This document shows positions 4,730 to 7,564 of a DNA stretch of 42,898 nucleotides, in pieces. How positions within the stretch are numbered: the first letter of the stretch is position 1; the number at the start of each line of letters is the position of its first letter. The translations under genes and the position numbers were made by a program. The notes below the pieces were generated by a model. The model made no database searches. It had not been told where the DNA came from and saw nothing but the letters and a program-made list of their open reading frames with translations. The DNA lies in the NCBI GenBank assembly GCA_016199485.1, contig JACQGO010000135.1, positions 1-42,898 of the forward strand, in the 5' to 3' direction. The stretch comes from Betaproteobacteria bacterium (GTDB lineage: Bacteria; Pseudomonadota; Gammaproteobacteria; Burkholderiales; SG8-41).

Positions 4730-5271
4730 CAGAAGGGCCTCAGAGCCTCGTCCACGTCGTCGATGTCGGTCGCCACTACAGCGGCGCCTCCGTTGAGGTG
4801 CCGGTGGCCCCACAGGGCGATCAGGGCCGCGTCAGCGCGGCCGTCGCGCAACCGGAAGTCCTGTCCTGGGAACTGCTGCCGCGCGGCCTGGAGCAGCCGT
4901 TCCTTGTGCGCCTTGGGCGGCTCCTTAGGCTTCCGGGTGATGAACTCGTACTGCCACTTCTGGGCCGTCGTTTCGTCGAATGGGATGCCAGCGGACGTGA
5001 GCGCCATCAGCCATAGCCCGTAGCCGTAGCCGATGGTGACGGCGCTGCTGCGGCCCTGGCCCGGCATGGCCTGCTGGCGCTCGATCACAGCCCGCGCGGC
5101 GTCCAGCCTCATAAGACAATGCCGCGTGCAATCCAGTAGCATGTCGAGCATGGCGGCACGGTTGTACTCGCCGCCCAGCAGCGGGGTTCTCTCCGCCTTC
5201 ACGATCAGCCCCTCTCGGTCGAGCAGCACCAGGGCGCCGGACTTGCCAGGGTCGATCCCGATGGTGTTCAT
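4729..5271 (-). CDS. RuvC-like Holliday junction resolvase
   Basis: IGIDPG.SG, VIE, G.GYG.W, DGRADAALIA. Confidence 0.88.
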   Translation of the reverse strand: MNTIGIDPGKSGALVLLDREGLIVKAERTPLLGGEYNRAAMLDMLLDCTRHCLMRLDAARAVIERQQAMPGQGRSSAVTIGYGYGLWLMALTSAGIPFDETTAQKWQYEFITRKPKEPPKAHKERLLQAARQQFPGQDFRLRDGRADAALIALWGHRHLNGGAAVVATDIDDVDEALRPF

Positions 5272-7271
5272 GGCGCGTCCAGCAGGGAGAGTTGTCCGGC
5301 GGCTTCGGCGGCCACGGCTTCCGGGCCTTTGGCGGCGACTTCGCAGGCGTGGGCGATGCGGGCGCGGGACAGTTCGACGTACTCGGCCTCGCGTTCGATG
5401 CCGAGGAAGCGGAAGCCCTCGATCGAACACGCCTTGCCGGTCGAGCCGGAGCCCATGAACGGATCGAGCACCAGCCCGCCGGGCGGCGTCACCAGCCGCA
5501 CCAGCCATCGCATCAGATCGGTCGGCTTGACCGTCGGGTGGGTGTTGCGAGCGAACGGCATCTTCCGTTCTGTGCCATCCTGACGGAGAGGCATACCCTC
5601 TCCACTCCAATGTGTGACTTGGGTTTCCGTCTCGCGGAGTCCCGCCTCGCGGTCTTCGCGGCTCGCCTTCGCCGTGTAGAAGAAGCGAGCGGCGGAACCG
5701 GAGTCGCCTCGGGCAGGGGCAGCGCCGCGCAGATTGAATGTCCCGTAAGCATTGCCGTTACGCGGCTCTATCGAGGTTGGTTCGCGGCCGGTAACGTCAC
5801 CGGCCTGTCCAGCCGAATCAGGAAACCCCGCCAGCACCTCGTCGCTCCCGTCATGCACCACGTTCGCGGGCCAGCGGCCGAGCCCATCGACAGGCAATCC
5901 ACGCTTTCCATTGAGGCCATCGCCTAGCACTCGCGCCCCGGCCCCGGCCCCGGCCCCAGCCGTTCCACCTTCAACTCCGATCCTGCACCCGTCGATGTTC
6001 AGCGCACCGGTGCCGTGCTTCGCGACGTTTGCGGCGACCGTGCCATCCAGCGGCTTGCGGGCGACCGCAATGTACTCAAGCCCTACGCCCCCGTCCGGGA
6101 AGGCCGCCAGATGCCGCGCGATAGCAGGTACGGTTGCAAAATGTTCTCGGGTGACGCGCCACTTCGTGACCTCGGCGTTGAAAGCTACAACCGCAATGGA
6201 GGCAATGGCACTCAACAAATATCCCGGTTTGTGGGCCTCGATGATGGCGGCGGGTGTGATCTCCGACAGACAGCACTTCAAGATTTTCAAGTCGATTGTC
6301 GTGCTTGATTCCGTTTCGGTGGTGGACGTGTTCCCATCGTTCCAGGCGTCGGCCAAGATGCTTTTCCATGAGCGCACGGTGCTCAAGCTGGAAATCGTCG
6401 CCAATGCGAACAGCGACGTACCCATCGCTCCTGACAAAGCGGCCTGTGTACTCTGCCGCCCGCCGGCAGGCCATTGAGCAGAAGCGCACGCCGCGTCGTA
6501 TTCGCTTGGGCTTAACGCAAAACTCTCTACCGCAATGCTCGCAGGTAACAGCGACCATAAGCACCCTTCCAATCTCGTTAGATGGGAGCCTATTGTTGCA
6601 TAGAGTTCTTCGCTTGGCAATGGTTTGCGCGCCTTGATGATGATTTCATGTCCAGGTTTCAGCGCCGTGCCCCAGCCATTCCATTTGACGCCCTCCGGTG
6701 TGGCTGGGATTGTACGCTCCCAATCGATCATAGGGCGTTGTTCACTTGCACCGTGGAAATTACCGCCGCGTTTATCGGAACGGCGTTCTATCCCCACCAC
6801 TTCTCGCTCCGCCCCAGCCCCCCGATCGATGGCCTTGCTCACATTCAACGATTTCGGGAAGCCCTGGCCGAACAGCCAGCAGAGCGTATCCCGCAGCTCG
6901 AACCCGGCATCCTCCAGCGCGCACATCAGGCGATGGAACCGGCGCGGCGAGCCGAAGCAGAGCAGGTGCCCACCTGGCTTGAGCACGCGCAGGCATTCCG
7001 CGAACGCGGCGGCCATGGCGTGCTGGTACTCGTCGTCCCGGCGCGGATCGTATTCCCCTGCGTGCATTGATCCGCAGCGTTCTCGCGTTTTGTGGTAATC
7101 CATACCGATAGGACCGCCGAATTTGTCCCAGGTCTTGCCCATGAAGTGCAGGCCGTAGGGCGGATCGGTCACGACGGCATCCACGCTCGCCTCCGCCAGC
7201 GTGGGCAGCACCTCCAGGGAGTCGCCCCGGTAAAGGACGTGCGGCCCGATCTCGATGCGCTCGAAGGTCAT
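5268..7271 (-). CDS. Orphan N6/N4 DNA methyltransferase (beta class) with a 190-codon in-frame insertion
   Basis: GDSLEVL, VTDPPY (motif IV), GFPKS, GWGTALKP, HPTVKP, VLDPFMGSGSTG (motif I); duplicated ARKPL flanks the insert. Confidence 0.93.
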   Translation of the reverse strand: MTFERIEIGPHVLYRGDSLEVLPTLAEASVDAVVTDPPYGLHFMGKTWDKFGGPIGMDYHKTRERCGSMHAGEYDPRRDDEYQHAMAAAFAECLRVLKPGGHLLCFGSPRRFHRLMCALEDAGFELRDTLCWLFGQGFPKSLNVSKAIDRGAGAEREVVGIERRSDKRGGNFHGASEQRPMIDWERTIPATPEGVKWNGWGTALKPGHEIIIKARKPLPSEELYATIGSHLTRLEGCLWSLLPASIAVESFALSPSEYDAACASAQWPAGGRQSTQAALSGAMGTSLFALATISSLSTVRSWKSILADAWNDGNTSTTETESSTTIDLKILKCCLSEITPAAIIEAHKPGYLLSAIASIAVVAFNAEVTKWRVTREHFATVPAIARHLAAFPDGGVGLEYIAVARKPLDGTVAANVAKHGTGALNIDGCRIGVEGGTAGAGAGAGARVLGDGLNGKRGLPVDGLGRWPANVVHDGSDEVLAGFPDSAGQAGDVTGREPTSIEPRNGNAYGTFNLRGAAPARGDSGSAARFFYTAKASREDREAGLRETETQVTHWSGEGMPLRQDGTERKMPFARNTHPTVKPTDLMRWLVRLVTPPGGLVLDPFMGSGSTGKACSIEGFRFLGIEREAEYVELSRARIAHACEVAAKGPEAVAAEAAGQLSLLDAP
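6076..6564 (-). CDS. HNH homing endonuclease nested in the -1 frame within the methyltransferase gene
   Basis: CEHC...FCSMAC; GYV...EHRALME..LGRRL...EHVHHRNGIKHDNRLENL; CLHC...FCNRTC; own GGAAGG RBS (ATG at 6558 or GTG at 6564). Confidence 0.9.
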   Translation of the reverse strand: MLMVAVTCEHCGREFCVKPKRIRRGVRFCSMACRRAAEYTGRFVRSDGYVAVRIGDDFQLEHRALMEKHLGRRLERWEHVHHRNGIKHDNRLENLEVLSVGDHTRRHHRGPQTGIFVECHCLHCGCSFQRRGHEVARHPRTFCNRTCYRAASGGLPGRGRRA

Positions 7272-7564
7272 CCGATCCGCTCCCATGCGTCGTGAAAGCC
7301 GCCCGGCATGCGGTCGGGGCCGTGCGGGGAGCCCACATCGGGCCTGCGACCGTCCGGGGCCGGCGGGAGCTTGGGCACCGGGCCGTGCAGCGCGACCCAC
7401 TCCGCCACCGTGCGCGCCGGGGCGCTGCCGGGCGGGCGGGTGCGCAGCGGTCTGCCGTAGCGCGTTTGGCTACCATGGCGCCCCTCGTGCAGCATCGCTC
7501 GCAAGCGTCGGATCGTCTCCCGGGCGCAAGCCAGGTGGCGACCTGCAAGGTCATCGAGATTCAT
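7268..7564 (-). CDS. Hypothetical protein
   Basis: Operon-packed; overlaps both neighbours. Confidence 0.5.
   Translation of the reverse strand: MNLDDLAGRHLACARETIRRLRAMLHEGRHGSQTRYGRPLRTRPPGSAPARTVAEWVALHGPVPKLPPAPDGRRPDVGSPHGPDRMPGGFHDAWERIG

What the first reader, a model, noticed from the sequence alone, without database searches (positions are those of the whole stretch)
6048..6632. Homing endonuclease overprinted inside an uninterrupted methyltransferase: a splice-free, intein-free selfish element
Seen: the MTase segment GWGTALKP.HE.I..ARKPL|DGTVAANV is split by an insert of exactly 570 nt (190 codons). The peptide E-x-I-x-x-ARKPL is duplicated on both sides with different codons (6618-6632 and 6048-6062). 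A complete Zn-finger/HNH/Zn-finger endonuclease gene with its own RBS (6076-6564) fills nearly the whole insert on the same strand in the -1 frame, yet the MTase frame has no stop. The insert is visibly lower in GC than the genome. Established: phage homing endonucleases usually spare their host gene through group I introns or inteins, or they are free-standing. Here the MTase-frame junctions lack Cys/Ser...His-Asn intein ends, and only ~55 nt and ~25 nt lie outside the HNH ORF, too little for a ribozyme core. Inference: the element neutralises its insertion by dual coding, so the host frame is read through as a tolerated loop, or the insert is removed by an unrecognised route such as ribosomal bypassing between the ARKPL copies. 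The recoded duplicate could also be what makes the occupied allele immune to cleavage.
Basis: partly seen in the sequence, partly recalled or inferred. Interest (0 to 1): 0.9.

Follow-up and report, generated by a model that had tools for sequence, protein, structure and literature searches.

The report
HNH endonuclease overprinted in phage methylase
A selfish homing-endonuclease gene sits out of frame inside a phage DNA methyltransferase gene whose own reading frame stays open; this arrangement was already described in mycobacteriophages as the "ShiLan domain", and it turns out to be widespread in environmental phages.

Summary
The methyltransferase ORF (5268-7271, minus strand, 667 aa) carries a 570-nt insert. 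The insert holds an intact Zn-finger/HNH ORF at offset +2, has no stop in the methyltransferase frame, and is flanked by two 12-aa copies of the same motif.

It is not new as a kind. It is a homologue of the "ShiLan domain / hidden HNH" of mycobacteriophage methylases (PMC11855218, PMC9957025), with the same host family, site and relative frame, the same duplicated 11-12 aa, and 47.6% identity to ShiLan's HNH.

- In 108 of 111 non-redundant related loci the methyltransferase frame has no stop across the HNH region. The third frame has 2-27 stops in all 111, at 31-66% GC.
- In 98 of 102 loci with both flanks, the flanks are in one frame with no stop between them.
- No intron model matched and no intein domain was found.

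The best reading is read-through dual coding of a tolerated insert. This rests on comparison only; no expression data exist.

Additions here:
- a conserved Shine-Dalgarno site before the HNH start;
- complementary conservation of the two motif copies;
- a low-GC3 tract marking foreign origin;
- spread well beyond actinophages.

The parts
5268..7271 (-). Uninterrupted DNA methyltransferase ORF (667 aa) with DPPY near the N terminus and DPFMGSGSTG near the C terminus. Its TGA overlaps the ATG of the next gene, a RuvC-like resolvase.
   Evidence: Pfam N6_N4_Mtase. PHROG 67. The fold matches CcrM, M.BceJIV and RsrI. Next gene: PHROG 1770.
6654..7271 (-). N-terminal part of the methyltransferase, up to GWGTALKP (residues 1-206).
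   Evidence: Alignment with empty alleles Xeno gp59 and Daenerys gp61.
6654..6821 (-). Methyltransferase codons 151-206. GC3 is 0.55 against 0.83 in codons 1-150. Probably a co-converted foreign flank.
6084..6653 (-). The 570-nt insert (190 codons) if copy 1 is counted as its first 12 codons. It has no stop in the methyltransferase frame.
6618..6653 (-). Copy 1 of the motif (GHEIIIKARKPL, residues 207-218). Element-borne, GC 0.47. Modelled as strand 204-215.
6559..6617 (-). Linker between copy 1 and the HNH start, coding in the methyltransferase frame only.
6565..6570 (-). Shine-Dalgarno-like GGAAGG, 6 nt before ATG 6558.
   Evidence: An SD core is present at -18..-4 in 79 of 98 related alleles, against 0.21 in random windows.
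6076..6558 (-). HNH endonuclease ORF (160 aa from the ATG; 162 aa from GTG 6564), with CxxC pairs at both ends and a central HNH. Offset +2 to the methyltransferase frame.
   Evidence: Pfam HNH_3. PHROGs HNH endonuclease. Alignment A1.
6048..6083 (-). Copy 2 of the motif (GLEYIAVARKPL, residues 397-408). Native, with GC3 0.83 in the bin for codons 399-410. Its first codons carry the HNH stop.
5268..6047 (-). C-terminal part of the methyltransferase: the GTVAANV...HGTGALNIDGCRI block, the variable region, and the AdoMet-binding motifs.

Best explanation
This is a ShiLan-type element. It is a mobile cassette made of a recoded copy of 12 methyltransferase codons, a short linker carrying a ribosome-binding site, and an HNH homing endonuclease gene. 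It sits in a phage beta-class DNA methyltransferase gene just after GWGTALKP.

The HNH protein is made from its own start codon in the +2 frame. Ribosomes translating the methyltransferase read straight through the 190 extra codons, so the enzyme is made as one 667-aa chain with the insert as a tolerated excursion next to the conserved E-x5-R-K-P strand.

Selection keeps the host frame free of stops but hardly constrains its amino-acid sequence over the overlap.

What is shown: the anatomy, the homology to the published element, the conserved openness and the conserved relative frame. What is inferred: read-through at the protein level, an active methyltransferase, and homing.
For: Homology and site.
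- Full-length HNH homologues lie inside single annotated methylase CDSs in Cr-LKS3 (69% identity), ShiLan, Bipolar and others (about 48%), and Mantra (44%).
- 10 of 10 loci first fetched with a full-length HNH homologue have the HNH at +2 in an open methyltransferase frame.
- All 5 occupied alleles have the same site and the same duplicated 12-mer. Xeno and Daenerys are empty alleles.

Openness.
- 163 of 166 loci and 108 of 111 clusters have 0 stops in the methyltransferase frame. None of the 166 is open in the third frame.
- 98 of 102 clusters with both flanks are in one frame with no stop between the flanks.
- This holds at GC 0.31-0.66.
- Synonymous shuffles expect 1.7 stops on average, and the median fraction left open is 0.098. 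The third frame has 10.1 stops observed against 10.3 shuffled.
- The two non-overprinted HNH relatives, L164 and L172, have 12 and 9 stops in that frame.
- Three clusters with a broken HNH frame still keep the methyltransferase frame open.

Passenger peptide.
- Amino-acid identity in the methyltransferase frame is about that of the third frame (0.400 against 0.385, with HNH at 0.636).
- Nucleotide change is highest at HNH codon position 3.

Other routes.
- No Rfam match near the gathering score was found in the window, and none in 6 loci.
- Pfam shows no Hint domain.

Mobility.
- GC3 is 0.40-0.58 over codons 151-238 and in the HNH frame, against 0.83 in the native parts.
- Some HNH pairs are 93-94% identical inside methyltransferases only 62-68% identical.

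The published analysis reaches the same reading for ShiLan (PMC11855218; sections 1, 3, 4 and the legends read).
Against: - No RNA or protein data exist. No RNA run holds the locus.
- The model is mediocre (mean pLDDT 66.9). It gives copy 2 and the strongly conserved GTVAANV...HGTGALNID block pLDDT of 29-50, so it does not show how the C-terminal part docks.
- Openness could be selected partly for translational coupling to the overlapping downstream gene (ATGA at 5271-5268) rather than for methyltransferase activity.
More distant relatives were not examined, and the two weakest kept are the non-overprinted ones.
- Two clusters (L097, L150) have one stop between copy 1 and the HNH start, so a two-chain form is possible.
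Confidence: 0.8

Rival explanations
1. Two-chain methyltransferase. The N half (ending with copy 1) and the C half (starting before copy 2) are made or work as separate fragments that complement each other. The duplicated strand gives each fragment an overlapping end.
For: PHROGs hold half-size families: phrog_3008 starts at residue 403 and phrog_6025 covers residues 79-206. L172 has a free-standing HNH between separate N and C ORFs. L097 and L150 have a stop just after copy 1. Both copies are conserved at the protein level.
Against: There is no stop in 108 of 111 clusters, and none in the window. I saw no ATG, GTG or TTG with an obvious ribosome-binding site just before copy 2 in the window (my reading). 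If the C half started downstream of the HNH gene, the overlap would not need to be open.
Confidence: 0.07
2. The insert is removed from the mRNA by an unrecognised self-splicing or host-assisted intron that carries the HNH ORF.
For: Phage HNH genes often sit in group I introns (established knowledge). The paper notes that the 5' end of the insert resembles the sequence 3' of the site, as seen for some group I introns (PMC11855218, section 3.1).
Against: The only Rfam matches at E<=10 over 5200-7400 were two chance-level hits to unrelated families. There were no matches at E<=0.01 in 6 related loci. The authors' RNAweasel search was negative. Only about 90 nt lie outside the ORF. A spliced intron gives no reason for 108 of 111 lineages to avoid stops in the exon frame.
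Confidence: 0.05
3. The insert peptide is cut out after translation by a non-canonical protein-splicing route.
For: This would need the open frame that is observed. In the paper's set, invaded mycobacteriophage alleles have Thr or Ser after the insert (PMC11855218, section 3.2).
Against: Pfam shows no Hint or intein family at E<=0.1. The window's junction residues are P|G and V|G. The peptide in the overlap evolves about like the non-coding third frame, which does not fit a catalytic fold.
Confidence: 0.04
4. Ribosomes hop from copy 1 to copy 2 (translational bypassing).
For: The two peptide copies could be seen as take-off and landing sites. T4 gene 60 links a bypass to a homing endonuclease (recalled, not checked here).
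Against: The codons differ (AAA CCA TTG against AAG CCG CTG). At positions with the same residue, the two copies share a codon in 0.31 of cases, against 0.31 with shuffled partners. The distance is 570 nt, against about 50 nt in known cases (recalled). A bypassed gap needs no open frame.
Confidence: 0.02
5. The methyltransferase is a dead gene, and its frame is open by chance in GC-rich DNA.
For: High GC makes long open frames common, and many spurious ORFs overlap this region.
Against: The window's own shuffle test gives 0.033. The frame is open in lineages with 31-45% GC where the third frame has 12-27 stops. All family-invariant residues are kept in the window.
Confidence: 0.02

Closest known systems
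ShiLan domain / hidden out-of-frame HNH endonuclease in mycobacteriophage DNA methylases (Arsenault, Gosselin & Gogarten 2025, PMC11855218; 2023 paper PMC9957025)
   Same: Same methyltransferase family, same insertion site after GWGTALK(P), no stop in the host frame, and the HNH with two zinc fingers in the third frame. The first 11-12 aa of the insert repeat the 11-12 aa after the site. No intron or intein signs. Distribution is patchy. The window's HNH is 47.6% identical to ShiLan's over 97% of its length.
   Different: The window's insert is 190 aa against 202 aa. The host is not an actinophage: this is a 42.9-kb phage-like contig binned with a 65% GC genome from groundwater metagenome runs. 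A clear Shine-Dalgarno site precedes the start, whereas the paper reports no detectable RBS and proposes leaderless initiation. Here the HNH stop overlaps copy 2.
Inteins with a homing endonuclease domain
   Same: A selfish insert at a conserved site that is translated in frame with the host protein. The same methylase family also carries a true intein (Starcevich; PMC11855218).
   Different: In an intein the endonuclease is in the host frame and the insert splices itself out. Here the endonuclease is in another frame and no splicing domain exists.
Group I intron-encoded HNH endonucleases of phages (such as I-HmuI; recalled)
   Same: An HNH homing enzyme carried inside a phage gene.
   Different: No ribozyme was detected, and the exon frame is kept open through the insert.
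Free-standing homing endonuclease genes that split a host gene
   Same: L172 shows a relative of this HNH lying between separate N and C methyltransferase ORFs.
   Different: In the window, and in 108 of 111 clusters, the host gene is not split.
Mitochondrial homing-endonuclease insertions that bring a copy of the displaced host segment (Allomyces atp6, Ophiostoma rps3; recalled, not checked)
   Same: The element carries a recoded duplicate of the host coding segment next to its insertion point.
   Different: Those replace the 3' end of the gene and are in frame or follow a stop. Here the duplicate is internal and the endonuclease is overprinted.

Membership tests
ShiLan-type out-of-frame HNH insertion | Host gene is the same N6_N4 methyltransferase family. 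| tested here: met
   Pfam PF01555. Aligns along its length with Bipolar, Mantra, Starcevich and Xeno methylases.
ShiLan-type out-of-frame HNH insertion | Insertion at the conserved site after GWGTALK(P), before x-x-E-P-I-x-x-A-R-K-P-L. | tested here: met
ShiLan-type out-of-frame HNH insertion | No stop codon in the methylase frame through the insert. | tested here: met
ShiLan-type out-of-frame HNH insertion | HNH ORF in the third frame (+2), homologous to the ShiLan HNH. | tested here: met
   Offset +2 in the window and in 9 other loci. tblastn against ShiLan: 47.6% identity, residues 4-160, E 6e-33.
ShiLan-type out-of-frame HNH insertion | The start of the insert repeats the 11-12 residues that follow the site. 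| tested here: met
   8 of 12 residues are identical in the window. Both copies are present in 79 of 79 alleles.
ShiLan-type out-of-frame HNH insertion | Patchy distribution consistent with homing. | tested here: inconclusive
   HNH identity against methyltransferase identity gives rho 0.40, with discordant pairs. A foreign GC3 tract is present. No empty allele was found in the same genome or runs. Cleavage was not tested.
Intein | Hint splicing domain, with Cys/Ser/Thr at the first and +1 residues and a terminal Asn. | tested here: not met
   No Hint family at E<=0.1. Junction residues are Gly/Pro and Val|Gly.
Group I intron | Match to the ribozyme covariance model. | tested here: not met
   No group I intron match in the Rfam scan of 5200-7400 at E<=10. 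The two listed hits are to unrelated families and far below their gathering scores.
Programmed translational bypass | Matched take-off and landing codons, and a short gap with a stop after take-off. | tested here: not met
   The codons differ, there is no stop, and the gap is 570 nt.
HNH homing endonuclease | Site-specific cleavage of the empty allele. | not testable with these tools
   Only the HNH_3 domain and conserved His/Asn/Cys columns are shown.

The most novel reading that the evidence does not exclude
The duplicated 12-mer is a working part of the solution, not a scar. The element brings its own copy of the strand so that the invariant Glu is supplied by copy 1 and the invariant Arg-Lys-Pro-Leu by copy 2.

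- In 118 of 118 uninvaded representatives, Glu and Arg are both invariant.
- In invaded alleles, copy 1 keeps Glu in 79 of 79 but Arg in only 18 of 79. Copy 2 keeps Arg in 67 of 79 but Glu in only 41 of 79.
- Neither copy has both residues in 37 of 79 alleles.
- The two copies of one allele resemble each other more than copies from different alleles do: 6.03 against 5.04 identical residues, exceeded in 0 of 5000 shuffles. They do not share codons more than chance.

This would make it a self-complementing insertion that repairs the motif it splits. Shared amino-acid composition (GC content) within a lineage could account for part of the within-allele likeness.
Probability: 0.3. Interest if true: 0.6.

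Novelty: new member of a known kind. Interest (0 to 1): 0.4.

Why it matters
Homing endonuclease genes are thought to survive inside essential or useful genes by hiding in self-splicing introns or inteins. This element uses a third way: it is simply translated through in another frame.

That idea is already in print for about ten mycobacteriophages. The data here show it is a large, old and widespread family in environmental phages. There are hundreds of relatives across GC contents from 31 to 66%, with strict selection against stops in the host frame.

This makes it one of the clearest natural cases of selection for an open but otherwise nearly unconstrained overlapping frame. It also warns annotators that many long "DNA methylase" ORFs hide an uncalled endonuclease gene.

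Tried and rejected
- Group I intron. The Rfam scan of 5200-7400 at E<=10 gave only two chance-level hits to unrelated families. Six exceptional loci gave nothing at E<=0.01.
- Intein. There are no Hint families in Pfam.
- Expression. No RNA holder is listed for the locus. Four DNA runs from one groundwater study, which may be the source of this DNA, were laid as contigs. They cover the occupied allele with no joint across the insert, which says nothing about an empty allele.
- Empty allele or second copy in the same genome. None was found, only a distant methyltransferase C-domain hit on another contig.
- Genome-contig scan with the single HNH protein. It gave one distant relative that is not in a methyltransferase.
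- PDB sequence search. It did not align the duplicated motif, so the structural role of the motif rests on the model only.
- AF2 model. It gave helices with pLDDT 82-92 for insert residues 221-310. I do not take this as proof of a folded domain, because amino-acid identity in that frame is about that of the third frame, and the conservation in the alignment is largely imposed by the HNH frame.
- Host taxon. The tmRNA tag ANDERYALAA suggests a proteobacterial genome only by recall, and binning of the contig with that genome is unverified.
- The supplements and the GitHub repository of PMC11855218 were not seen. They may list non-actinophage examples, which bears on my claim that the wide spread is an addition.
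Full report
**What is there**

On the minus strand an ORF runs from ATG 7271 to the stop at 5268 (667 aa, P0002). It is a beta-class DNA methyltransferase.
- Pfam N6_N4_Mtase matches at E 1.7e-31.
- DPPY is at residues 36-39 and DPFMGSGSTG at 603-612.
- An AlphaFold model of it matches CcrM, M.BceJIV, TTHA0409 and RsrI.

After GWGTALKP (residue 206) come these parts:
- copy 1, GHEIIIKARKPL (6653-6618);
- a 19-codon linker;
- about 160 codons that overlap an HNH ORF;
- copy 2, GLEYIAVARKPL (6083-6048);
- the strongly conserved DGTVAANV...HGTGALNIDGCRI block.

The two copies are exactly 570 nt apart. The HNH ORF (P0001) matches Pfam HNH_3 at E 3.9e-08 and several PHROG HNH families. It lies at offset +2 to the methyltransferase frame.

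GGAAGG at 6570-6565 lies 6 nt before ATG 6558, so that ATG is the more likely start than GTG 6564. The TGA stop (6078-6076) lies inside the first codons of copy 2.

The window is a whole 42.9-kb contig with terminase, portal, tape-measure, tail-fibre, DnaC-like and RuvC-like genes, so it is a phage or prophage. It is binned with a 3.95-Mb, 65% GC genome assembly and is held by groundwater metagenome runs.

**It is a member of a published kind**

tblastn of the HNH protein against phage records placed full-length homologues inside single annotated "DNA methylase/methyltransferase" CDSs:
- Cylindrospermopsis phage Cr-LKS3 (69% identity);
- Mycobacterium phages Starcevich, Bipolar, OwlsT2W, ShiLan, Pollywog, Filuzino, MISSy and Murica (about 48%);
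- Mantra and Totinger (44%).

In every locus I fetched at that stage, the HNH sits at offset +2 in a long open methyltransferase frame, while the third frame is closed (10 of 10). The protein alignment shows the same insertion point and the same duplicated 12-mer in all five occupied alleles. Xeno gp59 and Daenerys gp61 are empty alleles reading ALKP|xxEPIVVARKPL.

A literature search then found the description.
- **Arsenault, Gosselin and Gogarten 2025** (PMC11855218). I read the abstract, sections 1, 3 and 4, and the legends and tables. They call it the "ShiLan domain". It is a roughly 202-aa insert in ShiLan gp65 and related methylases of clusters A1, E, F1 and J. It has no stop in the methylase frame and a hidden HNH with two zinc fingers in the third frame. 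Its first 11 residues resemble the 11 residues after the site. No intron or intein signature was found, the structure is predicted as a loop, and the patchy distribution is taken as homing.
- **The 2023 paper** (PMC9957025). I saw passages only. It showed that the domain moves between divergent methylases.
- **A 2025 genome announcement** (PMC12613952). I saw the search listing only. It mentions another case.

A search for "homing endonuclease" together with "overprinting" found nothing.

I aligned eight HNH proteins (A1) and scanned metagenome contigs and IMG/VR with that alignment.
- The best 80 of each were kept.
- With the earlier loci and the window this gave 173 loci.
- 166 of them have an HNH match of at least 100 residues.
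- Clustering at 95% nucleotide identity or more gave 111 groups.

Results for the methyltransferase frame:
- It has no stop across the HNH region in 163 of 166 loci and in 108 of 111 groups.
- The third frame has 2-27 stops in every one.
- This holds from 31% to 66% GC.
- Of 102 groups with both methyltransferase flanks, 98 have both flanks in one frame, the HNH at +2, and no stop between the flanks.
- In 79 of 79 alleles whose flank matches reach the junction, the distance is a multiple of 3 (489-684 nt, median 588).

The exceptions:
- L164 and L172 carry the HNH relative free-standing between methyltransferase genes or halves, with 12 and 9 stops in that frame.
- L097 and L150 have a single stop between copy 1 and the HNH start.
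- L148 has a frameshift in the N flank.

Three groups (L011, L093, L128) have a stop in the HNH frame yet keep the methyltransferase frame open.

Shuffling synonymous codons within each HNH ORF keeps the codon usage, so the test is conservative. It gave these figures:

| Measure | Methyltransferase frame | Third frame |
|---|---|---|
| Mean stops expected from shuffles | 1.7 | 10.3 |
| Mean stops observed | 0 in 108 of 111 groups | 10.1 |
| Median fraction of shuffles left open | 0.098 | 0.0 |
| Fraction left open, window only | 0.033 | 0.0 |

The lineages are related, so the per-lineage fractions cannot simply be multiplied. Still, openness is kept through divergence down to 40% HNH identity.

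**What is selected**

On a codon alignment of 99 intact alleles, amino-acid identity is highest in the HNH frame. The methyltransferase frame is only 2-3 points above the non-coding third frame. For pairs with 60-70% HNH identity the values are 0.636, 0.400 and 0.385. Nucleotide differences are greatest at HNH codon position 3.

So over the overlap the HNH sequence is the constrained one. The host frame is mainly kept free of stops.

The AlphaFold model used an alignment of 92 sequences (A2) and has mean pLDDT 66.9.
- It places copy 1 in a strand (204-215).
- It gives helices of pLDDT 82-92 for residues 221-310.
- It gives low confidence for copy 2 and for the variable region.

I treat the helices with caution, because the conservation in that alignment is largely imposed by the HNH frame.

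**Points that add to, or differ from, the paper**

1. **Ribosome-binding site.** An SD core lies at -18 to -4 of the HNH start in 79 of 98 alleles, against 0.21 in random windows. A 5-mer is present in 55 of 98, against 0.09. Bipolar, Starcevich and Mantra read ctGGAGGAcgaGTG. The paper states that no RBS is detectable and proposes leaderless initiation.

2. **The two copies are conserved in a complementary way.**

| Position | 118 uninvaded representatives | Copy 1, 79 invaded alleles | Copy 2, 79 invaded alleles |
|---|---|---|---|
| Glu | 118 | 79 | 41 |
| Arg | 118 | 18 | 67 |
| Lys | 118 | 79 | 77 |
| Pro | 118 | 72 | 78 |

   Neither copy has both Glu and Arg in 37 of 79 alleles. Copies within one allele are more alike than copies across alleles (6.03 against 5.04 identical residues, exceeded in 0 of 5000 shuffles). 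Their codons match no more than chance (0.31 against 0.31). Part of the Glu loss in copy 2 follows from the HNH stop lying there.

3. **GC3 marks a foreign tract in the window**.

| Segment | GC3 |
|---|---|
| Methyltransferase codons 1-150 | 0.83 |
| Codons 151-206 | 0.55 |
| Copy 1 | 0.58 |
| Linker | 0.40 |
| HNH ORF, own frame | 0.57 |
| Copy 2 (bin, codons 399-410) | 0.83 |
| Neighbouring genes | 0.83-0.93 |

   The foreign tract therefore includes about 170 nt of upstream flank and ends at copy 2. This fits acquisition from a lower-GC donor with one-sided co-conversion, and it marks copy 1 as element-borne.

4. **Evidence of transfer.** HNH identity and methyltransferase-flank identity correlate only moderately (rho 0.40, 861 pairs of 42 alleles). 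Some pairs have HNH 93-94% identical inside methyltransferases that are 62-68% identical.

5. **The protein database holds many such single ORFs.** They are named only "DNA modification methylase".

**Verdict**

The alternatives fare as follows:
- Bypassing, intron splicing, protein splicing and chance openness are each unlikely.
- A two-fragment enzyme remains a minor rival.

The arrangement is a new member of a known kind, now shown to be common outside actinophages. Nobody has yet shown at the bench that the 667-aa protein is made and active, or that the HNH cuts the empty site.

Noticed in passing
L008:1834-2541 (+), inside the open methyltransferase frame 108-2771: A second, different HNH ORF (235 codons) is overprinted at offset +1 between LVTPP and LVLDPF of the same methyltransferase, which also carries the ShiLan-type insert. 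One gene therefore holds two out-of-frame endonuclease genes.
   Followed up: partly
L172:2369-3355 and L164:2285-2995: The most distant HNH relatives kept (39% and 42% identity) are free-standing genes between methyltransferase ORFs or halves. They have 9 and 12 stops in the frame that is open elsewhere. This may be the non-overprinted state of the family.
   Followed up: partly
L097:2472-2474; L150:about 2493-2495: A single stop in the methyltransferase frame lies between copy 1 and the HNH start, while the frame stays open through the HNH region. These may be split enzymes or recent nonsense mutations.
   Followed up: no
L003 (Mantra) and L006 (Starcevich) methyltransferase CDSs; L010:1211-2025: The same methyltransferase family carries an in-frame LAGLIDADG domain (Mantra) and a Cys...Asn intein-like insert (Starcevich). 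Both are known from PMC11855218. L010 has a further insert of about 800 nt between residues 46 and 92 in an open frame.
   Followed up: no
window 5923-5967 (-): GGGGCC repeats encode (Gly-Ala)n in the variable region of the methyltransferase. The read-laying tool flagged this stretch as a repeat.
   Followed up: no
window 5268-5271: The methyltransferase stop TGA overlaps the ATG of the next gene (ATGA), a RuvC-like resolvase. Translational coupling could add to selection for an uninterrupted frame.
   Followed up: no
proteins P0155 and P0180: Some relatives have a complete single motif (ALEPITVARKPL) followed by a different insert of about 200 aa before ...TVAxNV. This is another occupant of nearly the same site.
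   Followed up: no
window 6654-6821 (-): GC3 drops to 0.55 in methyltransferase codons 151-206, upstream of the insert. Downstream of the insert it returns at once to 0.83. This looks like a one-sided co-conversion tract.
   Followed up: partly
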